Virus record (IMG/VR): IMGVR_UViG_3300045971_000477
Coordinates: 1-55,771 of that record
Origin: a virus
Lineage: Duplodnaviria > Caudoviricetes
Length of the DNA: 55,771 nucleotides
Reading direction: 5' to 3' (one strand)
The position numbers and the translations under genes were made by a program. Every line of letters starts with the position of its first letter. Position 1 is the stretch's first letter. Of this stretch, positions 3,134 through 27,674 are shown in pieces. Under the pieces are notes generated by a model. That model was not told the DNA's origin and made no database searches. It saw nothing but the letters and a program-made list of their open reading frames with translations.

Positions 3134-3415
3134 ATGTCAACAAAATTCAAAATCACAGGCGGTAAAAAAGGTTTCATCCGTGCAATTGAGGCGGCATTCG
3201 CCTCCAAGGTTAGCGACCCCACGGTGCGCTATAGCCACGCAAGGGGGTTCCACGTTGAGCCACAAACGACCCCTGCGGACGGTGACATGCTGTGGCAAGG
3301 GTGGGCATATTACCGTCCGGGCGTGTTGAGGAATGTCCGTTCCCTGCGCCCATGTCATTGGGCGGATGTCCGGCAGTCCATCCGGTGGGCCCATGAGAAC
3401 AATGTGGTAGGCTAG
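3134..3415 (+). CDS. Hypothetical early protein
   Basis: 93 aa; AATATATG leader. Confidence 0.7.
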   Translation: MSTKFKITGGKKGFIRAIEAAFASKVSDPTVRYSHARGFHVEPQTTPADGDMLWQGWAYYRPGVLRNVRSLRPCHWADVRQSIRWAHENNVVG

Positions 3416-3444
3416 TTCAACAATTCAACATTCAATATATATAT

Positions 3445-3651
3445 ATGACAAACAAATACAAAGCCCATTGTGCCGACTGCGGCAAGGAAGTCCCGGCGCG
3501 CATGGGCACGCTAAGCAAAGAAGGCCGGCGGTGGGCTGTGCGGTGCACGGATTGCAGCACGGTGAGCATGCGGAGGGATCGGTTTGACACGGAGTTGGAA
3601 GACCGCATGGCGGAAGCGTGCGGGTTGGGCATGGGCAATGAGAGGTGGTAG
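3445..3651 (+). CDS. Small putative Zn-binding protein
   Basis: CADC...CTDC motifs; AATATATATATG leader. Confidence 0.7.
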   Translation: MTNKYKAHCADCGKEVPARMGTLSKEGRRWAVRCTDCSTVSMRRDRFDTELEDRMAEACGLGMGNERW

Positions 3652-3724
3652 GCTAAAGTCCCCTGCCCCCCTGGTCCCGGTCCACTTGACCGGAGCCAGT
3701 AGGCAGTGAACAAGTAACCAAAAT

Positions 3725-4030
3725 ATGAAAACACAAGAGACGACATCGGGGCAGATAATCATTGAGCAGTTGGGCGGGAACAGGTTTCGCGCCATGACGG
3801 GGGCAAGGCACTTTGTTTTTGATGACGTGGGGCAATCCCTGACGTTCCGGTTGCCCTGGCCGGGCATCAATTTTGTCCGGGTGACCCTGACCCCGGCGGA
3901 CCTTTACGACATGGAATTTTTCAAGGTTCGGGGTTTATCCCTGACTTTGAAAGCACGGGAGGTGGGCATTTACTGGGATCGGCTGCAGGCGGTCTTTACG
4001 GCGAACACCGGGCTTGATACGCACCTTTAA
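3725..4030 (+). CDS. Conserved phage hypothetical protein
   Basis: IIEQLGGNRFRAMTGA...DLYDMEF...FTANTGL, a pattern typical of a widespread phage early-gene family. Confidence 0.75.
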   Translation: MKTQETTSGQIIIEQLGGNRFRAMTGARHFVFDDVGQSLTFRLPWPGINFVRVTLTPADLYDMEFFKVRGLSLTLKAREVGIYWDRLQAVFTANTGLDTHL

Positions 4031-4053
4031 TTTGGTTAACGAATAAAAATATT

Positions 4054-4410
4054 ATGATGACACCGGAAGCGAAGAACATTGCGCGGGAAACCCGGGCGGA
4101 GAGGATACTGGAGGGGGAACATGTTGCGGGTGTGCCCTTGCAGGCGTGGCATGTGGGCGAAACACCGTGTGCATGGGTGACGGGGGAGACCCCGGACGTG
4201 GATATTTTGACGGTGGGGGGGGTGCCCCGCCTTGCCATTCGCCGGGTGGCGGACGGGTGGGCGGTGAACACGGCAGGGCGGGCAACGGTGCGTTGGGACG
4301 GCGGGCGGGGCGCAATGGTGCTACATGCCGGGGAGAGTATCCTGGCGGGCGTGTTTGAAACTTATTTCAGGGCGAAAGTCCAGGCCGAGAAAATGACGGT
4401 ATGCCGGTAA
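4054..4410 (+). CDS. Hypothetical early protein
   Basis: 118 aa; AT-rich leader; operon context. Confidence 0.65.
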   Translation: MMTPEAKNIARETRAERILEGEHVAGVPLQAWHVGETPCAWVTGETPDVDILTVGGVPRLAIRRVADGWAVNTAGRATVRWDGGRGAMVLHAGESILAGVFETYFRAKVQAEKMTVCR

Positions 4411-4468
4411 AGCAGTCCCCCGGGGGGGGCGGCAGCGGATTGCTGCACGAATCAACGAATCAACAAAT

Positions 4469-4822
4469 ATGAAATCGAAATACAAAATCGGTTGGATTGG
4501 CATCAGGGTGGGCAAGTTGCTTGAGGGTTACGGTTGGATGCGGTTGGATCCTGCGTCCCCGAACAACCGGGATGGGTTTGACTGGGCCATGCCCAGCCAG
4601 ACGCGCAATGGGTTCCTTGAGACTGATTGGCGCAAGCTGGCGCGGCAGGTTACGGGCACCCTCGAGCGGTTGGCGGAGTTGCGGAAGCTACGTCCCGCCC
4701 CCACCCCCCGGGAGGTGATGGGCAACGTGGAACGGGCGCGGTTGGGGGGGGTGTCCAAGTCCCCGGCCAAAGGGGCAGCGAGCAGGAAGAATGGGTTGAA
4801 GGGTGGGAGGAACCAAATATGA
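4469..4822 (+). CDS. Hypothetical protein with basic C-terminal motif (possible DNA binding)
   Basis: Ends LGGVSKSPAKGAASRKNGLKGGR; AAATATG leader. Confidence 0.7.
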   Translation: MKSKYKIGWIGIRVGKLLEGYGWMRLDPASPNNRDGFDWAMPSQTRNGFLETDWRKLARQVTGTLERLAELRKLRPAPTPREVMGNVERARLGGVSKSPAKGAASRKNGLKGGRNQI

Positions 4823-5175
4823 ACCTTTGCAACCATGCCTGGACCGTGGACCGGACCACGCCCGGGGGAGAGTTGGAGTTGGAAGGATTCAGGCGGAAGG
4901 ACACGGCGATGCAGTATGCCCTCGAGCGCGGGGGCGCGGTGCGAAAGTCAACGGTGTATGATATCGGGCACTATCGTTGCGAGGAACTGGCGAGGAAGGT
5001 CGCCAGTCTGATTGCGGAAGACCTGGACAGGCGAGGCTGTGCGATAGGGGCGTTGCAGATGGGCGTGGTGGTTACCATGCTAAAGGATGCGGTGGAGGAA
5101 GCGACATGCCATTTCTGGGATGGCTTTGATACCCCCCGGGAGATGGGATGGGTGGGAGATGATGGTAACCCTTGA
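4819..5175 (+). CDS. Hypothetical early protein
   Basis: Start MNLCNHAW at an ATGA overlap with the upstream gene. Confidence 0.65.
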   Translation: MNLCNHAWTVDRTTPGGELELEGFRRKDTAMQYALERGGAVRKSTVYDIGHYRCEELARKVASLIAEDLDRRGCAIGALQMGVVVTMLKDAVEEATCHFWDGFDTPREMGWVGDDGNP

Positions 5176-5242
5176 CACCCTACCCCGGTGGGCCACCCCC
5201 CCCGGGGCAGCAGTCAGTGGTTAAATCAACAGCAATAAAATT

Positions 5243-6358
5243 ATGATTACAATAGATCAACAGAACAAGGCACTGGTGGAATTCATCGTCAAGCAGGCGG
5301 ACAGGCGGAACCCGCTTGTGGAAGTCTGGCAGAGCGAGGAGTCCATCACCATCAATGCTGGACTGGCGCGGGTTACCTTCCTGGCCCCCTGGTTGGAGAA
5401 CGGTGAGAACTTCGAGAGGGTCACCATCCCCGCGAGGGTTCTTAAGGGGTTGCCTGTCTCCCTGGTGGACTTTGGGGACGGCGAAACCCGGGTGACCTAC
5501 CCGGAGGGGTTGGTTATGCACCAATACAGCGCACACCTCGAGATGCCCCCCGGGGCGAATAGGGAGGGTGGGCTACTGGGTAGCCTGACCATGCCACCAT
5601 CGTTCCTGGAAGCACTGGGCAACGTGGCGCCTGCGGCGAGCAAGGCGGACACGCGATACATTTTGCAGGGGGTCAATGTCCAGGCAACCTTTGACGGGCT
5701 AAAGCTGGCGGCTTGTGATGGGCGTATGCTGCGGGTCGTGCACATCCCGACACGGGCGGAGGGTCCAAAGCCCAACCTAACCATCCCATCCCCGCTTGTG
5801 GCCCAGCTGCTGAAGCTTCCTGCGAGCATCAAGAAAGATTGCGTCATCCAGATGGGTTGGGGCGAAAAGTTCGTGACCTTCGAGGTGCATGCGCGGGTGG
5901 GCGCAGTCCAGCTCGAGGCGGGCATACTTGAGTGGCCCGGCGACACGGCAACTAGGCAGAGTTATCCTGATTACGGCGTAGTCACCCCCGCCCCCGGGGA
6001 CATGCCGATTACCGTGACGGTGGATGCCAAGTCCCTGAGCAACGCACTGGAGGCGATCAAGCCTGCTTGGTGCGAGACAACCACCGCCACCCGCGGCATC
6101 ATGCTGCGCCTTGATGCGGCAGGGGATTCCGGTGCCCTGCACGTTGAGGGTGTGGGCAATTCCACGATCCTTGTGCCTACGATCAAGGAGCCGTCCGCCG
6201 CCCTGAGCGTCGCATTTGATCCCCAGTGGCTCCTGACCCTGCTGGGCACCTACCGTGGGGCGGTGACGCTCCGGTTCAAGGACGAACTGACTCCGTGCCT
6301 GATGGGCCGGGAGGAAATGACAGATTATGCGGTTTTGATGCCTTGCAGGTTGGCTTGA
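5243..6358 (+). CDS. dnaN: DNA polymerase III beta sliding clamp-like protein
   Basis: 371 aa; ASKADTRYILQGV...LAACDGRML, YPDY, AFDPQWLL and C-terminal AVLMPCRL match beta-clamp motifs; N-terminus divergent. Confidence 0.75.
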   Translation: MITIDQQNKALVEFIVKQADRRNPLVEVWQSEESITINAGLARVTFLAPWLENGENFERVTIPARVLKGLPVSLVDFGDGETRVTYPEGLVMHQYSAHLEMPPGANREGGLLGSLTMPPSFLEALGNVAPAASKADTRYILQGVNVQATFDGLKLAACDGRMLRVVHIPTRAEGPKPNLTIPSPLVAQLLKLPASIKKDCVIQMGWGEKFVTFEVHARVGAVQLEAGILEWPGDTATRQSYPDYGVVTPAPGDMPITVTVDAKSLSNALEAIKPAWCETTTATRGIMLRLDAAGDSGALHVEGVGNSTILVPTIKEPSAALSVAFDPQWLLTLLGTYRGAVTLRFKDELTPCLMGREEMTDYAVLMPCRLA

Positions 6359-8670: not shown

Positions 8671-8817
8671 ATGCACATACAACCATCGGACATTAACATA
8701 GCCTGGATGGGAGTGGGCATCGCCATCGGCGGCATCATTTCCATCATCGTTTTAGCATTTAACAAATGGGCGCACGCCCGAATCGAAAAGGACAATAACA
8801 ATGACGACAGCAACTAA
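8671..8817 (+). CDS. Small single-pass membrane protein (48 aa; not in ORF track)
   Basis: AAAGGAG SD upstream; MHIQPSDINIAWMGVGIAIGGIISIIVLAFNKW... Confidence 0.6.
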   Translation: MHIQPSDINIAWMGVGIAIGGIISIIVLAFNKWAHARIEKDNNNDDSN

Positions 8818-9124
8818 AACACCCCCCATCAACGACATCATCCCCAAGAACTACATTGACGCCTACGTCACCGGTTCGCGGGAGGTTCAGGTGGAAGCCT
8901 GCGGGGAGACCCTGCACGTTAACATTGAGACGGGCGTTCCTGTGACGCCCAAGGGTGCCTGGGGGCGCGGCGCGGTCATCAGGCAGATGAAGGTGGGCGA
9001 ATCCATCGTGGTGCCATTGAACGAACGGACGGGGTTCACGGCGCATGGCAAGAGCCAGGGGATCACGCTCATCTCCCGGCGGGTCGAGAAGACTGACACG
9101 GTCAGGATCTGGAGGACCGCATGA
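8801..9124 (+). CDS. Putative small DNA-binding protein
   Basis: IETGVPV..G....MKVGESIVV....TVRIWRT pattern common in phage proteins. Confidence 0.65.
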   Translation: MTTATKTPPINDIIPKNYIDAYVTGSREVQVEACGETLHVNIETGVPVTPKGAWGRGAVIRQMKVGESIVVPLNERTGFTAHGKSQGITLISRRVEKTDTVRIWRTA

Positions 9125-9423
9125 GCATGAAAGTGACTGAGTGGGTTATGTATGGTCCCGTGGAGGTTCAGGTCACGGCGGAGGCGGATCCGCACACGAA
9201 CGAGATCGTGGACGGCCCTTACTGCGCTTTGACGGGCGACCTGTTGTGCAGGGACGTGGCAAACGACCTTTTTAAGAAGCCGTTTCTGGCCCTCGACACG
9301 GAGGCCACAAAACGGGTCAACAACATCGTGCTGGGCATCGAGGAACTGAGCCAATTCCACAGGTTCAGCGGTGCGGCACTGGATCAGGCACGGGATACGT
9401 GGGAAGAGCGAGGTGGGCAATGA
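9121..9423 (+). CDS. Hypothetical protein
   Basis: 100 aa; ATGA overlaps on both sides. Confidence 0.7.
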   Translation: MSMKVTEWVMYGPVEVQVTAEADPHTNEIVDGPYCALTGDLLCRDVANDLFKKPFLALDTEATKRVNNIVLGIEELSQFHRFSGAALDQARDTWEERGGQ

Positions 9424-9845
9424 AGTCCCCCAGGCTCAAGTGGGAAGACTGCACCCTCCGGCTGGACGGGAAACTGTTCGGGCATATCTGCGATAAGGAT
9501 GACGGGGATAGCTGGTTAGGTTTTCGCAGGCAGGAAAACTCGGACAACCTTGTGGGCTGGCGCAGCACAGAGGCAGAGGCGCGGCAGCTTCTGGAGTCCG
9601 TTGCCTACAACGAAATATCAGAGCAACGACAGGGTGCACCCCTCCCCCCGGGAGTGATCATCACGGGCCAGTCCATCACCCTTGAGCAGGCGGATGCCCC
9701 CGGGCACTTGGTGATCACAATAATTGACGAGGGCACGGGCCCATGCGCAAGGCTTGAGGCGGAGCAATGGACGCTGAACCCTGGTGAGATTGAAATGGTG
9801 TCGGCGTTGGTGAATGAAATGTTGGCTAAACAAGAGAAAGTATAA
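9420..9845 (+). CDS. Hypothetical protein with N-terminal family-B module
   Basis: Start MKSPRLKW at an ATGA overlap; W..L.LDG..G.I...W...STEAEARQLL. Confidence 0.7.
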   Translation: MKSPRLKWEDCTLRLDGKLFGHICDKDDGDSWLGFRRQENSDNLVGWRSTEAEARQLLESVAYNEISEQRQGAPLPPGVIITGQSITLEQADAPGHLVITIIDEGTGPCARLEAEQWTLNPGEIEMVSALVNEMLAKQEKV

Positions 9846-9847
9846 AT

Positions 9848-10348
9848 ATGGAAACTAAATATAGATTGTTGGAACAGCTCGAAGAGTGTTTGGATGGCGA
9901 CGAGGTGCTTACGGTTGGCATGGTCTGGCAACGTGTCTGTGAATGCGTAGCTGGTCAGGACCTTACGCGTCCCATGCGCCGACCCGACGATGGGAAGGGG
10001 AAATATATCATCTGCGGCGACCCGGAGGGTGAGGAGTTTTGGAAATGGGGCGTGGGGTGGGTCACGTGGACGCCTGAAACCAGAGACTGGAACCATGAAA
10101 ACATCTGGCGCAAGGCGCGGGAGGTGGAGAATCCCACCCCCGCACTCTGGGTGGTGGTTCACACTGCCGGTAGTTGCAATGACTACACGTCAGTGGAAGA
10201 CCAAACCTTCTCATCCTGGCAGGAAGCCTGCGAAGCCGCGAAGCAGCAGGCGAGGATCAATGGGGCTGGCGCGGAGTTCGCCGTGGCCCACATTTACCTC
10301 ACGTTCAGGTGCTCTGTTGAAGTCGTGGAAAAGGAGGTGGGGAAGTGA
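9848..10348 (+). CDS. Array protein, family A
   Basis: KYRLL...RRPDDGKG module, LWVVV domain, ends KEVGK. Confidence 0.8.
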   Translation: METKYRLLEQLEECLDGDEVLTVGMVWQRVCECVAGQDLTRPMRRPDDGKGKYIICGDPEGEEFWKWGVGWVTWTPETRDWNHENIWRKAREVENPTPALWVVVHTAGSCNDYTSVEDQTFSSWQEACEAAKQQARINGAGAEFAVAHIYLTFRCSVEVVEKEVGK

Positions 10349-11112
10349 GCAAATACAGACTACTCGATGCAGAAGAACAAATACAAATCGCCGATGAGGT
10401 GAGGGACAGCGGCGTCTGGGAGACCGTGCCCATTGCGTGGGTGGGCCTGCGCAGCGAAGACGCCTCTCCCCGCCCATTCCGCCGACTAGATGACGGGAAG
10501 GGTGCGTTCATCCAACTCGGCCCAGAAGACAAGGCGGAGCCTGGGGACCAGATGCGGATGGACGGGACATGGCGGACGATCTACCCGGGGGGGGAGTGCA
10601 TGGTGGGCGAGCAGACGTTCCGCAGGAAAAGGAAGTCCGTCACGTATCGCCTGATCGAGTTTGGGGAGCGGTTGCAGCCGGGGGACCAACGACTTGGGCC
10701 TCGGAGGGAATGGTGTGACGTTGTGAACAACATTGCGGAGGAATGCGTTACCGCCCTCCCCTTTCGCCGCCCAGACGATGGGAAGGGTAAGTGGGTGCTG
10801 CTTGACCTGTGGACCGAGTTCCAAAGCGACGATGAGATATGGTTCAATGACACATGGACATCGCATTCCATGACAGGGTGGGTTGGCGGCGAGGTCATGC
10901 GCCGACGGCGTTTGGTGCAGATGTTTGCCCTGATCGAAGCAGACAACGTCCTATGCACCGGATCGGAAGCCAACTGCCGCAGTGAAGCTGCAAAGTGCGT
11001 TGCGGCGTTCCCGGAGAAGATGTATCGCGTCTGCAAGATGGTTGATGTCGCGATATACCGCACGCAGGTTGTGACTGAAAACAAGGTCGTGATTGAGGTG
11101 GTGGGGAAGTGA
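10345..11112 (+). CDS. Array protein, family A (duplicated module)
   Basis: Two YRL...PFRRxDDGKG units; ends EVVGK. Confidence 0.8.
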   Translation: MSKYRLLDAEEQIQIADEVRDSGVWETVPIAWVGLRSEDASPRPFRRLDDGKGAFIQLGPEDKAEPGDQMRMDGTWRTIYPGGECMVGEQTFRRKRKSVTYRLIEFGERLQPGDQRLGPRREWCDVVNNIAEECVTALPFRRPDDGKGKWVLLDLWTEFQSDDEIWFNDTWTSHSMTGWVGGEVMRRRRLVQMFALIEADNVLCTGSEANCRSEAAKCVAAFPEKMYRVCKMVDVAIYRTQVVTENKVVIEVVGK

Positions 11113-11306
11113 AAACCAAACGCACAATGACAGCGTGGATCGTGTTTGAGCAGGTAACACGTGAGGCCTGCATTATTCGCGGGACGTGCCTATCCAGAAG
11201 GGCCGCGGTGGAAAAAGCAAAAACCTTAGCGCGGAGGGACGGTCCACATTGTGAATTCTGGGTTTGCGAACAAACGAACATCATCACGAAGGAGGTGGGG
11301 AAGTGA
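11109..11306 (+). CDS. Array protein (resembles the family-A C-terminal domain alone)
   Basis: GTGA overlap; ends KEVGK. Confidence 0.7.
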   Translation: MKTKRTMTAWIVFEQVTREACIIRGTCLSRRAAVEKAKTLARRDGPHCEFWVCEQTNIITKEVGK

Positions 11307-11692
11307 ACTCACACACATGGCAGACAACGGACAACCGCCAGACATGGTGGCTGAGTGTGACAGGTAAAGAGAAAGGCGTTGTGTTTATGATCCCGGGCCA
11401 ATCCTGGTGGACATTCTACACGGACGCCGATCCAGACAAGCCGTTGCCCCACTTTTGCAGCCTCCAGGAGGCGAAGATGGCTCTTGCGAGGGAGGTGAGC
11501 CAACCAAAACGCGACTGGAAGGATTGGGAGACTTATTCAGAATTATTTCTAGACGGTGTTCTCGTAGCCGAAATATTTGAGGGCCTACGCGGAACCTACT
11601 GGTGCTGGCAGTTTTGCGACGCATCCAAGCAGGGACATTCTTGTAACCGCGCCGAGGCGAAGGCTGCGCTGATGAAGGAGGTGGGGAAGTGA
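11303..11692 (+). CDS. Array protein, family B (two fused modules)
   Basis: GTG start; ...EAKMALAREVS / ...EAKAALMKEVGK. Confidence 0.75.
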   Translation: MNSHTWQTTDNRQTWWLSVTGKEKGVVFMIPGQSWWTFYTDADPDKPLPHFCSLQEAKMALAREVSQPKRDWKDWETYSELFLDGVLVAEIFEGLRGTYWCWQFCDASKQGHSCNRAEAKAALMKEVGK

Positions 11693-11892
11693 GCAAGACC
11701 AAGCTGACGTGGGAGAATTACAAAGGCGCGTGGTATCTGAACCACCCGGATTGTTGCGTTGGTTCAATCGACAGGGTTCGGGACAAGGGATGGATATTCC
11801 TCAACTATTGCACGCCAGAACCAACGTGGTCCAAGACCTTCAAAACCCTTGCTGCCGCGAAGGCTGCGCTGATGAAGGAGGTCTCCAAGTGA
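11689..11892 (+). CDS. Array protein, family B
   Basis: WENYKGAWYL...AAKAALMKEVSK. Confidence 0.75.
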   Translation: MSKTKLTWENYKGAWYLNHPDCCVGSIDRVRDKGWIFLNYCTPEPTWSKTFKTLAAAKAALMKEVSK

Positions 11893-12113
11893 AACGCAAG
11901 GATAGTCCCCGGGGCATCTGGTGGGAGCAATTTAAAGGCTGCTGGTATCTGGTATCCCACGACGTGTGCTGGGGCGTGGTGTACCGAGCATACAAGGGGC
12001 AAGAAGTGTGGGGATATGTGAACCACACGCTGTGCGGTCCTGTCGAAACGTCGGGCACATTCACAATCAGAACCGAGGCGATGGCTGCACTTAGAAGGGA
12101 GGTGGGGAAGTGA
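11889..12113 (+). CDS. Array protein, family B
   Basis: GTG start; WEQFKGCWYL...EAMAALRREVGK. Confidence 0.75.
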   Translation: MKRKDSPRGIWWEQFKGCWYLVSHDVCWGVVYRAYKGQEVWGYVNHTLCGPVETSGTFTIRTEAMAALRREVGK

Positions 12114-12310
12114 AAAAACAATGGCACAAAGACCCAGTCATGGGGCACATCCACCGGCTGACCCGGGGGGATGAGCAGGTGGGTGCGGTGGTCAAGGCCC
12201 AGCAGGGGTGGGCAATATACAAGAATCATGCGGGAAAACTGGAACTGTTCGCATCGGCGGACACGTTGGAGGAAGCAAAGGAAACATTGAAAAAGGAGGT
12301 TGGATTATGA
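12110..12310 (+). CDS. Array protein, family B
   Basis: ...TLEEAKETLKKEVGL. Confidence 0.75.
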   Translation: MKKQWHKDPVMGHIHRLTRGDEQVGAVVKAQQGWAIYKNHAGKLELFASADTLEEAKETLKKEVGL

Positions 12311-12792
12311 GTAAATATAGACTGTTGGATGCGAACGAAATGGCTCGCGGGGGCGATGACGCACTGAAGATCGGTGGCTTCGGGTGGGAGCCTGTTACAG
12401 CAGGGGATCTTTACGAGGGACGGTTACCTGGGTGGGTACCTGTTCGGCGGCAGGATGACGGCAACGGGCAATGGTATCTGTTGGAGGAGGGTTGCACCAC
12501 AGAGCAGGGAGATCATGTGTGGGTGAATGCCCACGGGTGGAAGTCTGTGATTGCAGGGCAGGAGATCCATGCTGTGGCCGCACGCAGGAGGCGTGTGAAA
12601 GAACCCACGCTCTGGGTTGTGGTTGCAGATGGGCGCATTTCAACCAATCACTGGGAGGAATCCGCTGCCGTCAATGAGGCTAGGTGCATCAAACAGAATG
12701 CGCCGTGTCAAGTGGTGGTCGTCGCCCACATCACGCATGAGTTATCCATCGAGACAATCCAGACCGGGGTTGTGAAGGAGGTGGGCCATTGA
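12307..12792 (+). CDS. Array protein, family A
   Basis: MSKYRLLD...RRQDDGNG...PTLWVVV...VAHI...KEVGH. Confidence 0.8.
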   Translation: MSKYRLLDANEMARGGDDALKIGGFGWEPVTAGDLYEGRLPGWVPVRRQDDGNGQWYLLEEGCTTEQGDHVWVNAHGWKSVIAGQEIHAVAARRRRVKEPTLWVVVADGRISTNHWEESAAVNEARCIKQNAPCQVVVVAHITHELSIETIQTGVVKEVGH

Positions 12793-13058
12793 AACACCGC
12801 AAATACTATCTCTACATGCGGACCACAGGCATCTGCATCGCGGCATCCTGCGATTTTAACAGCCTGCGGACGTCCGACATGGATCACTGCGACTGGGCTG
12901 TGATCTGCAAGCACCCTGGGAAAGGGCGGTTTGAGGCGCGGGACATCAGCACCGGCGAGTTCCTGCCGCCAGCCAGATGCCGCAAGCTGGTGGAATCGTT
13001 GCGAAAAGCCCGGGCACGGAATGGGTTTGAAGGGGAATTGTGTGTTGTATGCAACTAA
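12789..13058 (+). CDS. Hypothetical protein
   Basis: TTG start in a TTGA overlap behind the AAGGAGGT SD. Confidence 0.6.
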   Translation: MKHRKYYLYMRTTGICIAASCDFNSLRTSDMDHCDWAVICKHPGKGRFEARDISTGEFLPPARCRKLVESLRKARARNGFEGELCVVCN

Positions 13059-13071
13059 TCCAGCCACTGCT

Positions 13072-14499
13072 ATGAACCTTAAAACCACCCCATTCACCCA
13101 CCAGCGGGAGCTATACGAACGCACGCGGGAACTCAATAGATACGCACTATTCTGGGAGCAGGGCACGGGGAAGACTAAGCCCACCATCGACACGGCAGCG
13201 TGGCTGCACATGCAGGGGAAGGTGGATGGGCTTCTGGTGCTGGCTCCAAACGGGGTCCACCGGAACTGGGTCAGTGACGAGATCCCAGCACACATGCCCG
13301 ATTGCGTGAGCTACAGTGCCCACACCTACCATTCCAGCAATGCGGGGAACAAGGCGCACAAGGACGCCTGCGAGCGGCTCCTTGAGGCACCAGGGCTTGC
13401 TGTGCTAGCCATGAGTTACGATGCCGCAGTCACGAAGGATGGCAGCAAACTGCTGGAATCGTTTCTGACAAAGCGAAAGTGTCTTTACGTTCTGGACGAG
13501 GCCACAAGGATCAAGAATCCATCGGCCAAACGGACCAAGGCGGTCCTGCTCACTGCACGGTTGGCGGCATACAGGCGCATCCTTACGGGCACCCCCATCG
13601 CCAACGGACCCTTCGATTGCTTTGCCATGATGAAGTTTCTCAAGCTGGACTTCTGGAAGGACTACTGCATGGAATCCTTCTTCGTGTTCAAACACCATTT
13701 TGGCATTTGGAAACAGGGCATGGCAGCAGGACGGCAGTTCAGTTATGTGGTGGGCTACAGGAACCTTGAACAGTTGCACGCCATCCTGAAGGACCACTCC
13801 TCCAGGGTGACCAAGGACCAGGTGCTGGACCTGCCTCCCAAGCTCTACTCAAAGCGGTATTTTCAGATGAACAAGGAACAGGTCCGGGTTTATAACGATC
13901 TGAAGAACGAGTTCATGACCTTCCTTGACGGTCAACTTGTCACCGCCCCGCTCGTCATCACCCGGATGATGCGCCTGCAACAGGTCACCAGTGGTTACGT
14001 TCCGTTTGACGGGGCAACAACCGTGCAGCAACTGGGCGAGGACAACCCACGCATGAAACTGCTGGAGGAGATCCTCGAGGACATGCCGCACAAGGCAATC
14101 ATCTGGGCCAAGTTCACCAAGGACATTGACATGATCATGTCCCTGGTGGGCAAGGAAGGCGTGCGCTATGACGGGTCAACATCCCCGGATGATCGGGCCA
14201 AAGCCATTGAGGCATTCCAACGGGGACCGGCGAAATACTTCGTGGCCAACCCTGCGGCGGCGGGAGAGGGACTGACCCTGCACGCGGCACGAACTGTGGT
14301 ATATTACAACAACAGCTTCAAGCTTACTGATAGACTACAGAGCGAGGATCGGGCGCATCGAATAGGGCAGGCCCGCCCCGTCTCTTATATTGATCTTGTG
14401 GCGGAGGATACGATTGACGAGCATGTGGTTAAGTCGCTGGTGAAAAAGAGCGACATAGCCCGGACAATCCTGGGCGATGATATTAAAAACTGGATATGA
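13072..14499 (+). CDS. SNF2-family (SF2) helicase
   Basis: EQGTGKT, VLDEAT, LTGTP, GEGLTL, QSEDRAHRIGQ. Confidence 0.95.
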   Translation: MNLKTTPFTHQRELYERTRELNRYALFWEQGTGKTKPTIDTAAWLHMQGKVDGLLVLAPNGVHRNWVSDEIPAHMPDCVSYSAHTYHSSNAGNKAHKDACERLLEAPGLAVLAMSYDAAVTKDGSKLLESFLTKRKCLYVLDEATRIKNPSAKRTKAVLLTARLAAYRRILTGTPIANGPFDCFAMMKFLKLDFWKDYCMESFFVFKHHFGIWKQGMAAGRQFSYVVGYRNLEQLHAILKDHSSRVTKDQVLDLPPKLYSKRYFQMNKEQVRVYNDLKNEFMTFLDGQLVTAPLVITRMMRLQQVTSGYVPFDGATTVQQLGEDNPRMKLLEEILEDMPHKAIIWAKFTKDIDMIMSLVGKEGVRYDGSTSPDDRAKAIEAFQRGPAKYFVANPAAAGEGLTLHAARTVVYYNNSFKLTDRLQSEDRAHRIGQARPVSYIDLVAEDTIDEHVVKSLVKKSDIARTILGDDIKNWI

Positions 14500-17098: not shown

Positions 17099-17325
17099 GT
17101 GCCACCAACGAACCGATTGTCCGGCACTGGCCCGGAACCACCGTCAAATGGATGACCTATCAGGTTGGCCGGATGGTCAACCGCCAGGAGATTGTGCCGC
17201 AGTTTCTGGGGCGTGCAGTGGTGGGCACCAAGACCACCAGCAACTTCGTCACGGTCTTCAAGCTCATGGGTTGGGGAAAGACCGAAGAAGACGCTGTCAA
17301 GATGGCACACAAGAACGGGATTTAA
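17095..17325 (+). CDS. Hypothetical protein
   Basis: GTG start overlapping the upstream stop. Confidence 0.6.
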   Translation: MSATNEPIVRHWPGTTVKWMTYQVGRMVNRQEIVPQFLGRAVVGTKTTSNFVTVFKLMGWGKTEEDAVKMAHKNGI

Positions 17326-17333
17326 CGCCGAAC

Positions 17334-18314
17334 ATGAAACGATCCTTCCAATTCTGCATATCAACCAGCAACATCTGCAATCTGAAGTGCCCCTCCTGCC
17401 CCATCGGGCGGAGGGAAGAACAGAAGGCAGTTGAATGGCTCACCCCACAAAAGCTCCAGGCCATTATGACCAAGGCATTGGGCGAGTGCAGGGTGCCCCG
17501 GGTGACCTTCGTGGGGTGGTGCGAACCCACCTTGAACCCCGACCTTCCGCTCATGGTCCGCATCGTGCGTGACCACAAGGTGGCATGCTGGGTGACAACG
17601 AACCTGACCGCGAAGTTCGACATGGATGCCCTGCTGGATGCGTCCCCGGAGATGATCATCGTGTCCACCAGCGGGGTGACTCAGCGCACCTTCGCCGTGG
17701 ACCACCCCGGGGGCGATGTTGCCGCCATGCTCGACAGGCTCTGGTATCTTGCTGCCCACAAGCGGAAAGGCACCAAGCTCATGGTCCTGTGGCACAGATA
17801 CAACTACAACGAGTCAGAGATGGCGCAGATGGAGGGCTTGTGCAAACGTGCAGGCATCCACTTCTGCCCAGTGTTCGGCAAGTTGCTGGGGATCGAAGCG
17901 ATGCAGGCAGCGTTCGGCGGTTCCCGTGACCATGACGCCGTGATCGGGCGGATGATCCACCACATAACGGACATCCGGGATGCGTGCTTCAAGCATCGGA
18001 AGGCACCCTGCCGCGAGATCCAACGGTCCATCACCATTGATGCCTGGGGTCGGGTGCGCGTGTGCGGTGTGGCCTATCACAATGGTTACATGGGCGACTA
18101 CCTCGCAACGCCCATCGCGGATCTGATTGTCTCGAAGGGGAACAATCCGTTCTGCCGCCGGTGCATGGCCATTGGAACCCAGAACTGGGCCAACGAAACC
18201 ATGACCTGGAAACGGCGCGTGATTGATCGCGTGATTGGGGTGGGCTTCGCCACCGCGGGCCGGTTGATGACGATCAAGCCCACCATGCACAAGGGTCTGA
18301 GCACGGATCTGTAA
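17334..18314 (+). CDS. Radical SAM protein with SPASM/twitch-like domain
   Basis: CNLKCPSC, GWCEPTLNP, TTN, C-terminal C...IDAWGRVRVC...CRRC. Confidence 0.85.
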   Translation: MKRSFQFCISTSNICNLKCPSCPIGRREEQKAVEWLTPQKLQAIMTKALGECRVPRVTFVGWCEPTLNPDLPLMVRIVRDHKVACWVTTNLTAKFDMDALLDASPEMIIVSTSGVTQRTFAVDHPGGDVAAMLDRLWYLAAHKRKGTKLMVLWHRYNYNESEMAQMEGLCKRAGIHFCPVFGKLLGIEAMQAAFGGSRDHDAVIGRMIHHITDIRDACFKHRKAPCREIQRSITIDAWGRVRVCGVAYHNGYMGDYLATPIADLIVSKGNNPFCRRCMAIGTQNWANETMTWKRRVIDRVIGVGFATAGRLMTIKPTMHKGLSTDL

Positions 18315-23106: not shown

Positions 23107-24393
23107 ATGAACATTTATAACGACATAGACAAGAACGCTGCTGCGTGGACGCAACAGCTTATAACCAACAGACTGATCCCGGGTGGGGTCATGGTCTGCA
23201 AATCAATCACGGACATACAACCACATGAACTCGACGGATTTACACAAGCACATTTCTTTAACGGAATTTCCGGCTGGGCCAGGGCACTCGACCTCGCAGG
23301 GTGGCCAGCAACTCGACCTATTTGGTGCGCCAGTCTCCCCTGCCAACCTTTCTCCTGTGCAGGGAAAGGCGAGGGGGTCAACGACGAACGTCATCTCTGG
23401 CCAGTCTTTTTCCAACTTGTCAAAGCCTGCCGACCTGTCGTCATTGTTGGCGAGCAAGTTGAAGCTGCGATTGGGCACGGGTGGCTCGATGGAGTATTCG
23501 CAGACTTGGAAGGAGAAGGTTACACCTGCGGGGCGACGGTATTGGGGGCACATAGCGTCCAAGCACCGCATAGGCGGCAAAGGATCTACTGGGGGGCCTT
23601 CGCCAAAGAGATCAGACAACCAGACAGCATCTTGGGGCACCCCAACGACGCAGGATGCCAAACACACGGGAATGTCACCATCGGAGTTGAATCGCGATCC
23701 CAACAACCTACGTGTGCAGGCGCACCAGACGGGAGGGTGGCCCACACCACAATCGGCAGACACGGGCAAGAGCGAAACTGTTCGGCAGGGATCGGAGAAC
23801 CTATCCGTTGTGGCCAACAAGACAAGGACGGATGGGCTCGCGTCAGCTTTGCAGCCGACTGCCTTGGAGGAGACGAAACGGAGCTTGGAGATACATGCTC
23901 AATCTGCGGTCTTGACTACGGAAACGAGTGCCTTTGCCCTGGCCCAACACAAGACGGAATCGAATACAGAGAAATTGACGGAGTGCTCTATGGCGGGCTG
24001 GGCAACAGCCAGCAGCCGGGATTGGAAGGACACCCCTGGAATGGCAGAGACGGGAGTGAACCCGGACGGGTCAGTGCGTCATCGGCTGGATCAGTTGCCC
24101 AGACAGGCAACATTGGCAACTTCTGGGGCAACACATGGCACCACTGCCGCGACAACAAATGGAGGAGAATCCCAGCCACGGCTAATGCTCAACGTGTTTT
24201 TCTCGGCATGGTTGATGGGCTACAATCCACAGTGGACCCTATCGGCCTTGCAAGCCTTGGGTTCCCGCTCGCGAAAACGATCCCAAACCGCGTCGCCCTC
24301 CTCAAAGGCTACGGCAACGCAATAGTACCACAGGTAGCTGCGGAGTTCCTGAAAGCCGTGATGAACATACTAGATAACAAGTCGGCAACATAA
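23107..24393 (+). CDS. DNA cytosine-5 methyltransferase (main frame)
   Basis: FFNGISGW, SLPCQPFS, GEQV, APHRRQRIY, LKGYGNAIVPQVA. Confidence 0.9.
   Translation: MNIYNDIDKNAAAWTQQLITNRLIPGGVMVCKSITDIQPHELDGFTQAHFFNGISGWARALDLAGWPATRPIWCASLPCQPFSCAGKGEGVNDERHLWPVFFQLVKACRPVVIVGEQVEAAIGHGWLDGVFADLEGEGYTCGATVLGAHSVQAPHRRQRIYWGAFAKEIRQPDSILGHPNDAGCQTHGNVTIGVESRSQQPTCAGAPDGRVAHTTIGRHGQERNCSAGIGEPIRCGQQDKDGWARVSFAADCLGGDETELGDTCSICGLDYGNECLCPGPTQDGIEYREIDGVLYGGLGNSQQPGLEGHPWNGRDGSEPGRVSASSAGSVAQTGNIGNFWGNTWHHCRDNKWRRIPATANAQRVFLGMVDGLQSTVDPIGLASLGFPLAKTIPNRVALLKGYGNAIVPQVAAEFLKAVMNILDNKSAT
23183..24325 (+). CDS. Nested +1-frame ORF, probable second methyltransferase subunit (start uncertain)
   Basis: 380 codons open inside the MTase; WGTP, WPTP and WATASSRDWKD repeats, and LNVFFSAWLMGYNPQW (motif IX-like). 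Confidence 0.7.
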   Translation: MGSWSANQSRTYNHMNSTDLHKHISLTEFPAGPGHSTSQGGQQLDLFGAPVSPANLSPVQGKARGSTTNVISGQSFSNLSKPADLSSLLASKLKLRLGTGGSMEYSQTWKEKVTPAGRRYWGHIASKHRIGGKGSTGGPSPKRSDNQTASWGTPTTQDAKHTGMSPSELNRDPNNLRVQAHQTGGWPTPQSADTGKSETVRQGSENLSVVANKTRTDGLASALQPTALEETKRSLEIHAQSAVLTTETSAFALAQHKTESNTEKLTECSMAGWATASSRDWKDTPGMAETGVNPDGSVRHRLDQLPRQATLATSGATHGTTAATTNGGESQPRLMLNVFFSAWLMGYNPQWTLSALQALGSRSRKRSQTASPSSKATATQ

Positions 24394-27293: not shown

Positions 27294-27674
27294 CTACCAC
27301 TTCCCCTCCGGGCACTTCGACGTCTTTATCCACCACTTGAACCGTGTGCAGCCGCACTTGAACGACTTGCACTTACCCAACCCACCCCTTGCGCCACCGT
27401 CCCATAATGGGCATGCTTCGCAGACTTCCTTGATCTGGGCTACCCGTGCGGCATCCGCCACGGGGAACCCTGCTGCGGCCCATGCAGTTAGGGCACTGGC
27501 AAGGTTGGCGGCTTCCTGCATGATCCCCGGCTCGGGGGGGAGGGGGGGGGCTGAGATCGTGGGCAGTGTTGGCTTGACTCCTTGGTCCTGCCCACTGGAC
27601 GGGGCAGGTTTCAGTGTGGGCTTGATTGGTTCGATCCCCCCGTGGGCAGGACCAAAGAGTCTTAATGCTGGCAT
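27294..27674 (-). CDS. Small Cys-cluster protein (DUF6171-like)
   Basis: CEACPLW...KC..KCGC...KCPEGKW. Confidence 0.7.
   Translation of the reverse strand: MPALRLFGPAHGGIEPIKPTLKPAPSSGQDQGVKPTLPTISAPPLPPEPGIMQEAANLASALTAWAAAGFPVADAARVAQIKEVCEACPLWDGGARGGLGKCKSFKCGCTRFKWWIKTSKCPEGKW

What the first reader, a model, noticed from the sequence alone, without database searches (positions are those of the whole stretch)
9848..12792. Cassette-like array of paralogous mini-genes joined by one 18-bp 'KEVGK' junction
Seen: eight consecutive genes end in variants of AAGGAGGTGGGGAAGTGA. Copies are perfect at 10331-10348, 11289-11306 and 11675-11692, near-perfect at 11095 and 12096, and degenerate at 11875, 12293 and 12775. 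The motif is at once a strong Shine-Dalgarno, the C-terminal peptide KEVGK, the stop of one gene and the start of the next (GTGA). Two unrelated protein families share it. A 26-bp exact repeat lies at 11657-11682/11857-11882, and an eroded junction (GAGGGAGGTGAG, ~11488) sits between two fused modules. Most early genes use SD-less A-rich leaders instead. Inference: the junction is a portable micro-homology that lets ORFs be gained, lost, duplicated or shuffled while staying translationally coupled, like an integrase-free gene accordion, plausibly for anti-defence or host-takeover factors.
Basis: partly seen in the sequence, partly recalled or inferred. Interest (0 to 1): 0.85.

Follow-up and report, generated by a model that had tools for sequence, protein, structure and literature searches.

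The report
Chained phage genes sharing one ribosome-site junction
Nine small early genes of an uncultured pond phage are chained so that the last five codons of each also spell the ribosome-binding site and overlapping start of the next, a known way of coupling translation that here also marks where gene modules have been fused, swapped and reordered.

Summary
Eight consecutive gene boundaries (10331-12792) carry AAGGAGGTGGGGAAGTGA or a variant scoring 13-18 of 18. About 0.02 such sites are expected by chance. Each copy is a strong Shine-Dalgarno (SD) site, a 5-nt spacer and an NTGA stop/start overlap. Together these force a (K/R)EV(G/S)K-type tail on every protein.

The array is built from three module types: N, C and B. 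Family B is unrelated to family A by profile comparison, so the shared tail does not come from shared protein ancestry.

The rest of the phage is SD-poor. Strong SDs occur at 8 of 8 array starts, 5 of 21 other overlapping starts and 2 of 37 non-overlapping starts.

My best reading is a translationally coupled polycistronic chain whose junction is kept by selection on (re)initiation.

The cassette idea is partly supported:
- A relative (L025) has different cassette content and order.
- The window's g4 is a fusion made by an 8-nt deletion inside a junction.
- Metagenomic homologues swap domains at a junction-like linker.

Three results count against an active recombination device:
- The identical 18-mer arises as an ordinary junction in 18 unrelated viral contigs.
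- No structural variants were seen in the available assemblies.
- No recombinase was found among 20 flanking proteins.

The function of the proteins is unknown. I rate it a new variant of a known kind, of moderate interest.

The parts
9420..9845 (+). g0: a family B-type N-terminal domain plus an extra domain. It starts at an SD+ATGA overlap. Its 3' end is not a KEVGK junction (TAA, 2-nt gap, no SD before g1).
   Evidence: orthologue in L025 at 43% aa
9848..10348 (+). g1: family A, N-domain plus C-domain, ending VEKEVGK
10118..10135 (+). g1 interdomain linker REVENP (CGGGAGGTGGAGAATCCC). It contains GGAGGTG and scores 11 of 18 against the junction. It sits where homologues switch C-domains.
   Evidence: By sequence alone it cannot be told from background.
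10331..10348 (+). Junction g1/g2, exact 18-mer, GTGA overlap
10345..11112 (+). g2: family A, N-N-C (N-domain doubled), ending IEVVGK
11095..11112 (+). Junction g2/g3, 16 of 18, GTGA overlap
11109..11306 (+). g3: stand-alone C-type module, 65 aa
   Evidence: E 4.6e-8 (Z=1) against the family A C-domain profile with tails removed
11289..11306 (+). Junction g3/g4, exact 18-mer
11303..11692 (+). g4: two family B modules fused in frame (g4a 11303-11503, g4b 11504-11689)
   Evidence: The unfused orthologues are separate genes in L025 and in P0034, P0037 and P0041.
11489..11500 (+). Relic of a junction inside g4 (AGGGAGGTGAGC). It is 8 nt shorter than an intact junction, which merges the two frames.
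11657..11682 (+). 26-bp tract identical to 11857-11882 (3' ends of g4b and g5). It ends inside the junction. Candidate gene-conversion tract.
   Evidence: The gene bodies are about 48% identical at nucleotide level. g4b orthologues elsewhere end AAVEKEV.. rather than AALMKEV...
11675..11692 (+). Junction g4/g5, exact 18-mer
11689..11892 (+). g5: family B, 67 aa, four strands plus a C-terminal helix
   Evidence: pLDDT 91.4
11875..11892 (+). Junction g5/g6, 14 of 18 (KEVSK), GTGA overlap
11889..12113 (+). g6: family B, 74 aa
12096..12113 (+). Junction g6/g7, 17 of 18 (REVGK)
12110..12310 (+). g7: family B, 66 aa
12293..12310 (+). Junction g7/g8, 13 of 18 (KEVGL), ATGA overlap
12307..12792 (+). 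g8: family A, N-C, ending VKEVGH
12775..12792 (+). Junction g8/g9, 15 of 18, TTGA overlap
12789..13058 (+). g9: last gene of the chain, 89 aa, no detectable family. It ends with TAA and has no junction.
13072..14499 (+). SNF2-type DNA helicase, the first gene of the replication module. Used as the synteny anchor.

Best explanation
The region is a gap-free, co-directional chain of nine small early genes (g1-g9, 9848-13058) in an uncultured pond phage. The phage's replication genes resemble those of Pseudomonas Abidjanvirus-type siphoviruses.

The genes are assembled from three module types:
- N and C, which together make family A. g3 is a lone C module.
- B, a roughly 65-aa sheet-plus-helix domain present five times in tandem.

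Each of the eight internal boundaries is the ribosome-binding site of the downstream gene: an 8-9 nt Shine-Dalgarno (SD) sequence, a 5-nt spacer, and a GTG, ATG or TTG start that overlaps the upstream TGA stop. This signal lies wholly inside the last five codons of the upstream gene. It therefore dictates a (K/R)EV(G/S)(K/L/H) tail on every protein, whatever its fold.

Inferred mechanism: ribosomes finishing one cistron are held by the SD and restart on the overlapping, mostly weak (GTG) start codon. The whole chain would then be translated from one mRNA in fixed proportion. Selection on this initiation signal, together with inheritance through tandem duplication, keeps the junction nearly invariant while the gene bodies have diverged to 30-40% aa identity.

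As a consequence, and probably not as its purpose, the junction is the place where modules are joined, fused and exchanged.

Shown here: the anatomy, the SD strength, the divergence of the paralogues, the fusion, and the variation among relatives. Inferred: the coupling itself, a single transcript, and the host's use of SD.
For: Anatomy and SD strength:
- 8 of 8 boundaries have a 4-nt NTGA overlap with an SD 5 nt upstream.
- Predicted SD duplex energies are -12.3 to -16.2 kcal/mol, against a median of -3.2 and a minimum of -12.8 for the other 60 genes.
- Strong SDs occur at 8 of 8 array starts, 5 of 21 other overlapping starts and 2 of 37 non-overlapping starts.
- Start codons are GTG 6, ATG 1, TTG 1 in the array, against ATG 49, TTG 6, GTG 5 elsewhere.
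- No promoter-like or terminator-like site lies on the + strand inside the array.

Evidence that the constraint acts on nucleotides:
- The last residue tracks the next start codon: K with GTG, L (TTA) with ATG, H (CAT) with TTG.
- The first tail residue varies chemically (K, R, E, N, T), while the EV that spells GGAGGT is kept.
- 20 of 24 family A homologues end in [KRE]EV[GS][KLN] even where the C-domains differ.
- Remote family B relatives keep the helix but not the tail.
- The identical 18-mer is used in the same way in 18 unrelated viral contigs.

Literature: Huber et al. 2019 (PMC6728339, passages read) report that intragenic SDs are typical at overlapping pairs. In some SD-poor lineages they are used for reinitiation rather than de novo initiation, and removing the SD cut reinitiation in 4 of 5 E. 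coli pairs.
Against: - Coupling is not demonstrated. There are no expression or ribosome data.
- The host is unknown. It is only guessed to be a proteobacterium from 38-51% aa matches to Pseudomonas and Rhizobium phages.
- 16 of the 21 other overlapping pairs in this phage manage without a strong SD, so coupling in this phage does not generally need one.
- The SD energies use a recalled generic anti-SD sequence, not the host's own.
- Predicted SD accessibility (0.13-0.61) does not differ from background (0.46 +/- 0.21), so there is no sign of structural masking.
- Selection on SD and start explains 13 of the 18 positions. The spacer, identical in 5 of 8 junctions, is only weakly accounted for. 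Among KEVGK junctions in other phages GGG is the commonest Gly codon but not dominant, at 19 of 46.
Confidence: 0.72

Rival explanations
1. Active recombination linker. The repeated 18-mer is selected as micro-homology. Through it, whole cassettes are duplicated, deleted, fused, excised and re-inserted without an integrase, in the manner of PeSL elements of T4-type phages. The translational role would be the condition that keeps recombinants expressed.
For: - Family B modules lie in tandem with a period of 186-221 nt.
- g4 is an in-frame fusion produced by loss of exactly 8 nt between the two GTGs of a junction.
- A 26-nt identical tract ending in the junction links g4b and g5, whose bodies are about 48% identical. 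g4b orthologues elsewhere carry a different tail.
- L025 lacks g1-g3 between g0 and g4a and has a C-type (g3-like) gene after g4b. Content and order therefore differ, with borders at junctions.
- 29 of 253 homologue pairs have discordant N- and C-part identity, and the switch falls at or just after the GGAGGTG-encoding REV(EK)P linker.
- g6 and g7 are 99% and 96% identical to proteins that apparently share a 7,230-bp contig with a g8-like protein of only 46% identity. That these lie on one contig is inferred from matching contig lengths only.
- From established knowledge: direct repeats of about 18 bp a few hundred bp apart are known deletion and duplication hot spots in phage DNA.
Against: - The same 18-mer arose independently in 18 other viral contigs as single junctions, with two copies in one of them.
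- No joints, deletions or duplications appear in four public runs. These are contigs only, which drop rare variants, and two may be the source sample.
- P0047 joins a g5 head to a g2-type tail at a non-junction site.
- The internal linkers score only 10-11 of 18, which is background level.
- The synonymous Gly codon test is weak: P = 0.012 for 5 of 5 and 0.11 for 5 of 7.
- No annealing protein, integrase or other recombinase was found among the 20 flanking proteins scanned.
- Viable recombinants would cluster at gene borders by selection alone.
Confidence: 0.22
2. Protein-level tail. KEVGK is a functional C-terminal peptide (a tag, degron or binding motif) shared by all array proteins, and its resemblance to an SD is secondary.
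For: - The tail is conserved in 20 of 24 family A homologues and in most close family B homologues.
- In family B the K-E-V residues are part of the confidently modelled terminal helix.
Against: - The first tail residue is K, R, E, N or T, and the fourth is G, S, W, A or N. These are chemically unlike each other but compatible with the SD and spacer.
- The last residue follows the next gene's start codon.
- Fused genes drop the G-K but keep the EV.
- Remote family B relatives lack the tail.
- Unrelated proteins of unrelated phages carry the same tail at the same kind of junction.
- The g1 tail is modelled with low confidence.
Confidence: 0.04
3. Pure descent. The junctions are alike only because the genes are recent tandem copies, with no special constraint.
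For: The paralogues lie in tandem, and g2 and g8 share 73% identity over 52 nt spanning the junction and gene start.
Against: - The paralogue bodies are old: 27-42% aa identity, and about 48% nt identity for g4b against g5. The junctions remain at 13-18 of 18.
- The junction is kept at 17 of 18 in L025, whose orthologous proteins are 41-79% identical.
- Unrelated modules share it.
Confidence: 0.02

Closest known systems
Translational coupling by termination-reinitiation at NTGA/TGATG overlaps with an intragenic Shine-Dalgarno motif (Huber et al. 2019, PMC6728339; passages read)
   Same: - Co-directional genes with a 4-nt stop/start overlap.
- The SD lies inside the 3' end of the upstream gene at the usual spacing.
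- SD use is concentrated at overlaps in a genome that otherwise uses it little.
   Different: - Eight consecutive boundaries use almost the same 18 nt, across unrelated protein modules.
- A fixed pentapeptide tail is imposed on every protein.
- 6 of 8 starts are GTG.
- Coupling itself is untested here.
Start-associated sequences (SAS) of Cluster K mycobacteriophages (Pope et al. 2011, PMC3203893; passages read)
   Same: - A repeated sequence containing an SD and longer than rRNA pairing needs.
- It lies a few bases upstream of starts.
- It is confined to non-structural genes, shared by different gene families and conserved across related phages.
   Different: - The sequence differs (13-bp consensus there, 18 nt here).
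- SAS go mostly with ATG starts and are scattered. Here the copies are consecutive, fully embedded in coding sequence with an obligate overlap, and mostly on GTG.
- There is no extended inverted-repeat partner here.
PeSL cassettes of T4-type phages (Arbiol et al. 2010, PMC2839356, abstract and section 16 read; Comeau et al. 2014, PMC4122927, search listing only)
   Same: - A conserved expression signal is repeated between small accessory genes of a hyperplastic region.
- Relatives differ by whole-gene insertions, deletions and replacements bounded by the repeat.
- No dedicated integrase is involved.
   Different: - PeSLs are intergenic elements of about 100 bp holding a promoter and a terminator stem-loop, and mini-circles were shown experimentally.
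- Here the repeat is an 18-nt translational signal inside coding sequence.
- There are no promoter or terminator matches, and no circles or variants were observed.
Integron gene cassettes (recalled from general knowledge; no paper read)
   Same: An ordered array of small promoterless genes with a repeated boundary element.
   Different: No integrase was found among the 20 flanking proteins scanned. The boundary is a ribosome-binding site rather than a folded attC recombination site, and the genes overlap.

Membership tests
Translationally coupled overlapping gene pairs (termination-reinitiation) | Co-directional neighbours with a 1- or 4-nt stop/start overlap | tested here: met
   8 of 8 boundaries are NTGA overlaps
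Translationally coupled overlapping gene pairs (termination-reinitiation) | SD motif inside the upstream gene's 3' end at initiation spacing | tested here: met
   Predicted energy -12.3 to -16.2 kcal/mol at 8 of 8, with a 5-nt spacer. The anti-SD sequence was recalled, not taken from the host.
Translationally coupled overlapping gene pairs (termination-reinitiation) | Downstream translation depends on translation of the upstream gene | not testable with these tools
   Needs reporter constructs or ribosome profiling. The predicted SD accessibility result was uninformative.
Translationally coupled overlapping gene pairs (termination-reinitiation) | Genes share one transcript | tested here: inconclusive
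   A consensus scan finds no + strand promoter-like or terminator-like site in 9848-13058. No RNA data are available.
Start-associated sequences (Cluster K mycobacteriophages) | The 13-bp SAS consensus sequence | tested here: not met
   The junction is a different sequence
Start-associated sequences (Cluster K mycobacteriophages) | A repeat 3-7 bp upstream of starts, in non-structural genes, across different gene families | tested here: met
   5-nt spacing, in the early/replication arm only, shared by modules C and B
PeSL recombination cassettes | An intergenic element of about 100 bp with a sigma-70 promoter and a terminator stem-loop | tested here: not met
   There is no intergenic space and there are no promoter or terminator matches
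PeSL recombination cassettes | Indels and replacements between relatives bounded by the repeat | tested here: inconclusive
   L025 differs in content and order at gene junctions and homologues switch at a junction-like linker. However, there is only one DNA relative, it is distant, and the rest is protein-level evidence.
PeSL recombination cassettes | Excised mini-circles | not testable with these tools
   Only assembled contigs were available, and they show no joints
Integron | A tyrosine-recombinase integrase next to the array | tested here: not met
   No integrase family appears among the 20 + strand proteins flanking the array. The - strand structural genes were not scanned.
Programmed -1 frameshift site | A slippery heptamer X XXY YYZ at the frame change | tested here: not met
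   G GGG AAG does not fit the pattern, and a stop and an in-register start codon are present at every boundary (by inspection)

The most novel reading that the evidence does not exclude
The junction is a selected, self-contained cassette linker. One 18-nt sequence would supply the ribosome-binding site, the stop, the start and the recombination micro-homology. Single-domain modules (N, C, B) could then be duplicated, deleted, reordered and fused in frame without an integrase, either by an 8-nt slip between the two GTGs or by erosion to an REVEK-type linker. This would give the phage a combinatorial library of early proteins. Similar tail-as-RBS arrays noted elsewhere in this scan would make it a general, so far unnamed, mode of accessory-gene evolution in phages.
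Probability: 0.22. Interest if true: 0.7.

Novelty: new variant of a known kind. Interest (0 to 1): 0.42.

Why it matters
The array shows clearly how a translation signal buried in coding sequence can fix a peptide on unrelated proteins. Conserved C-terminal motifs in small phage proteins should therefore not be read as functional peptides without checking the next gene's ribosome-binding site.

If the junction also channels recombination, it would explain how phages keep fast-evolving accessory genes expressed while shuffling them. It would also give a simple sequence signature for finding such hypervariable arrays.

The N/C domain swaps among homologues, and the g4 and P0044 fusions, document gene fusion and domain exchange at cistron boundaries in natural phage populations.

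Tried and rejected
Searches for relatives and families:
- Close relatives in the phage record collection by DNA: none.
- Family A in viral contigs, JGI metagenomes and GTDB genomes: no confirmed relative. Two scans with a too-diverse alignment returned errors.
- The SNF2 anchor gave one viral relative, L005. Like PaMx11, it has lysis genes and no array upstream of the helicase. Its full record has no family B match.
- Pfam and PHROGs on all ten array proteins: nothing below E 0.03.
- Shorter relatives of family A (stand-alone domains): none.
- Earlier notes on this genome or by sequence: none.
- tRNAs: none.

Reads:
- Four public runs showed only sequence identical to the window or small fragments. 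There were no joints. X1 and X2 may be the source sample, and contigs cannot show rare variants.

Structures:
- The g1 model is poor (pLDDT 47.9).
- The g5 model is good. Its matches are only uncharacterised small phage proteins (best E 2.8e-3, TM 0.6-0.78), and nothing in the PDB (best E 0.54).
- The Atlas gave no feature hits for g1, only weak structural neighbours of its C-domain.

Other tests:
- SD masking by mRNA structure: no difference from background.
- Synonymous Gly codon test: weak.
- Frameshift or polyprotein reading: rejected by inspection, because there is no slippery heptamer.
- P0034 as a chimera of the g1 head and the g4a body: only 6 of 8 N-terminal residues match g1 (E 0.27), so this is left open.
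- Recombinase near the array: none found.


Full report
**What the window is.** The window is a whole IMG/VR viral contig of 55,771 bp, estimated 88% complete, with 56.8% GC. Early and replication genes lie on the + strand up to about 27.2 kb, and structural genes on the - strand. Public runs that hold it are labelled pond metagenomes. Its SNF2 helicase and primase are 47-51% identical to those of roughly 57-kb Pseudomonas siphoviruses (Abidjanvirus: PaMx11, Ab18). Its terminase is 38% identical to Rhizobium phages. The host is therefore probably a proteobacterium, but this is a weak inference.

**The observation.** It is correct in every detail.
- Genes g1 to g8 (9848-12792) each end in a variant of AAGGAGGTGGGGAAGTGA.
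- The 18-mer is exact at 10331, 11289 and 11675. It scores 17/18 at 12096, 16/18 at 11095, 15/18 at 12775, 14/18 at 11875 and 13/18 at 12293.
- Six matches with up to 3 mismatches compare with 0.02 expected.
- Only 5 other sites on either strand reach 13-14 of 18.
- All 4 copies of AAGGAGGTG in the genome are array junctions.
- Every boundary is a 4-nt overlap: GTGA six times, ATGA once, TTGA once.
- The 26-bp exact repeat and the eroded junction inside g4 are also real.

**What the genes are.** None has a Pfam or PHROG match. All-against-all and profile comparisons resolve three module types.
- N-domain: KYRLLD..., PxRRxDDGxG, WxWGxGW.
- C-domain: strand-helix-strand, modelled with moderate confidence only.
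- B-domain: about 65 aa, four strands and a C-terminal helix, pLDDT 91.4.

The order of modules is:

| Gene | Modules |
|---|---|
| g0 | B + extra domain |
| g1 | N-C |
| g2 | N-N-C |
| g3 | C alone (E 4.6e-8 against the C profile with tails removed) |
| g4 | B-B |
| g5, g6, g7 | B |
| g8 | N-C |
| g9 | unassigned |

B shows no detectable relation to C (hhalign probability 0.3%). Its match to N is at best non-significant (E 6e-4 at Z=1 among 23 sequences). Fold searches give only uncharacterised small phage proteins and no solved structure. Function is unknown, and the anti-defence suggestion has no support here.

**What the junction is.** It is the downstream gene's ribosome-binding site written into the upstream gene's last codons.
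- Predicted SD pairing is -12.3 to -16.2 kcal/mol for all 8 array starts. The other 60 genes have a median of -3.2 and a minimum of -12.8 (the anti-SD sequence was recalled).
- Strong SDs occur at 8 of 8 array starts, 5 of 21 other overlapping starts and 2 of 37 non-overlapping starts.
- Array starts are GTG 6, ATG 1 and TTG 1. Elsewhere they are ATG 49, TTG 6 and GTG 5.
- No promoter-like or terminator-like site interrupts the array on the + strand.

This is the pattern Huber et al. 2019 describe for overlapping pairs. It includes lineages that use the SD for reinitiation but rarely for de novo initiation (PMC6728339, passages read; its supplementary data were not seen).

**Nucleotide constraint or protein constraint.** The evidence points to nucleotides.
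- The last residue follows the next start codon: K = AAG for GTG, L = TTA for ATG, H = CAT for TTG.
- The first tail residue is K, R, E, N or T, and the fourth is G, S, W, A or N. The EV that spells GGAGGT is nearly invariant.
- 20 of 24 family A homologues from metagenomes end in [KRE]EV[GS][KLN], even where the C-domain is of a different type. The other four end TEINK, TEVAS, KEMSK and VEVAP.
- Close family B relatives keep the tail. Remote ones (P0050, P0052, P0053, P0055, P0058) keep the AKAAL helix but end differently.
- The identical 18-mer occurs in 18 other viral contigs of 2.9 million, with GC from 38% to 64%. In 17 of its 19 occurrences it sits between two ORFs of at least 35 codons, as KEVGK-stop plus a GTG start. 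Some of these contigs are near-duplicates of each other.

The sequence is therefore a recurrent convergent solution. None of those contigs has more than two copies, so the run of eight here remains exceptional.

**Does the junction also act in rearrangement?** Several results say that module boundaries are where change happens.

1. *The g4 fusion.* The window's g4 aligns to the unfused g4a'/g4b' genes of L025, and to the window's own g4/g5 junction, with a single 8-nt gap. Loss of the 8 nt between the two GTGs merges the frames exactly. P0034, P0037 and P0041 are stand-alone versions. P0044 looks like an independent B-B fusion.
2. *L025.* This 1,354-bp JGI contig is the only relative whose DNA I could reach. 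It shares g-2, g-1 and g0 (59%, 41% and 43% aa), g4a (79%) and g4b (41%). It lacks g1-g3 between g0 and g4a, and it has a C-type gene most like g3 after g4b, where the window has g5. Only 21 codons of that last gene are on the contig. Its two array junctions are 17 of 18 identical to the 18-mer.
3. *Domain swaps.* Among 23 family A proteins, 29 of 253 pairs differ by at least 40 points between N-part and C-part identity. P0006 and P0025 are identical for 96 residues through REVEKP and 30% identical after it. P0017/P0023 and P0022/P0026 switch at the same place. P0008/P0009 are 46% identical in N and 98% in C. In the window that linker is CGGGAGGTGGAGAAT, which contains the SD core. At 11 of 18 it cannot be told from background by sequence alone.
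4. *The 26-nt tract.* It is identical between g4b and g5 and ends inside the junction, while the gene bodies are about 48% identical. g4b orthologues elsewhere end AAVEKEV.. rather than AALMKEV... This suggests gene conversion.
5. *A sharp identity drop at g7/g8.* Proteins that seem to share one 7,230-bp contig are 99% (g6), 96% (g7) and 46% (g8-like) identical to the window. That they lie on one contig is inferred from the lengths only.
6. *Junction plus gene start.* The junction and the first codons of g2 resemble those of g8 (73% over 52 nt), so the junction also travels with the downstream gene.

**Against an active recombination device.**
- The four runs show no joints or indels. They are contigs only, X1 and X2 may be the source, and X3 holds only fragments.
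- P0047 joins a g5 head to a g2-type tail away from a junction.
- GGG at the Gly codon is only mildly favoured in other phages' KEVGK junctions (19 of 46). The window's 5 of 5 (P = 0.012) or 5 of 7 (P = 0.11) is therefore weak evidence for homogenisation.
- No annealing protein, integrase or resolvase-type recombinase stands out among the 20 flanking proteins.
- Selection would leave breakpoints at cistron borders whatever their origin.

**Comparison with what is known.**
- The mechanism is ordinary translational coupling at NTGA overlaps.
- The closest described repeated signal is the start-associated sequence of Cluster K mycobacteriophages, an SD-containing repeat before a subset of non-structural genes of different families (PMC3203893, passages read).
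- The closest recombination analogue is the PeSL of T4-type phages (PMC2839356, abstract and section 16 read). PeSLs are intergenic promoter-terminator elements of about 100 bp with demonstrated mini-circles. None of that applies here.
- Earlier notes of this scan (unchecked AI notes) describe several other phage arrays whose protein tails double as the next gene's ribosome-binding site. The architecture recurs. I did not test those claims.
- My five literature searches turned up no paper describing tail-encoded ribosome-binding-site arrays as a class. That is not proof of absence.

**Verdict.** The dual-coding reading is right. The 'gene accordion' reading is partly supported as a description of how the array has evolved, but not as a demonstrated mechanism. 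I rate it a new variant of a known kind, with interest 0.42.

Noticed in passing
window, whole (gene starts listed): The phage is SD-poor overall, with a median predicted SD energy of -3.2 kcal/mol. Many ATGA overlaps have no SD. Strong SDs are concentrated at overlapping starts (5 of 21) rather than non-overlapping ones (2 of 37). Several early genes (3134-6358) have A/T-rich leaders with no SD.
   Followed up: partly
window 8801-9845: The coupled chain begins upstream of the reported region. The g-2/g-1 and g-1/g0 boundaries are SD+ATGA overlaps (ATCTGGAGGACCGCATGA and GAGCGAGGTGGGCAATGA). The first is 15 of 18 conserved in L025, by my count from the sequences printed.
   Followed up: partly
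L017 6800-7650 (- strand): An unrelated phage contig (43% GC over the stretch held) has two consecutive genes ending KEVGK with the identical 18-mer and GTGA overlap. The next boundary is of the same style (AAGGAGGCCAAGAAATGA, ending KEAKK).
   Followed up: partly
P0044 and P0047 (metagenomic proteins): P0044 (138 aa) is two family B modules fused through ...LLEVSGQVKW..., which looks like a frame-merging change at an overlap. P0047 (37 aa) is a g5-type head joined to a g2-type tail, VIEEVSK.
   Followed up: no
window 13072-14499 compared with L005 and L006: In the complete relative L005 and in Pseudomonas phage PaMx11, the helicase is preceded by tail-fibre or virion structural genes and a lysis cassette. 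Here it is preceded by the early-gene array, so the module order differs between these phages.
   Followed up: partly
window 27400-27560: A C/G homopolymer-rich stretch (for example GGGGAGGGGGGGGGCTGA at 27537) lies in the zone where the + strand and - strand gene blocks meet.
   Followed up: no
window 17148-18314 and 23107-24393: There is a weak radical-SAM-like match (PHROG E 2.3e-6) and a DNA methyltransferase (E 4.5e-61) within the replication module.
   Followed up: no
window 9848-10130 (g1 N-domain) and homologues P0006-P0027: The family A N-domain has very conserved motifs (PMRRPDDGKG, WKWGVGW, WRKxR). It matches no Pfam or PHROG family, has no usable structure model, and gave no relatives in IMG/VR, JGI metagenomes or GTDB genomes.
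   Followed up: partly
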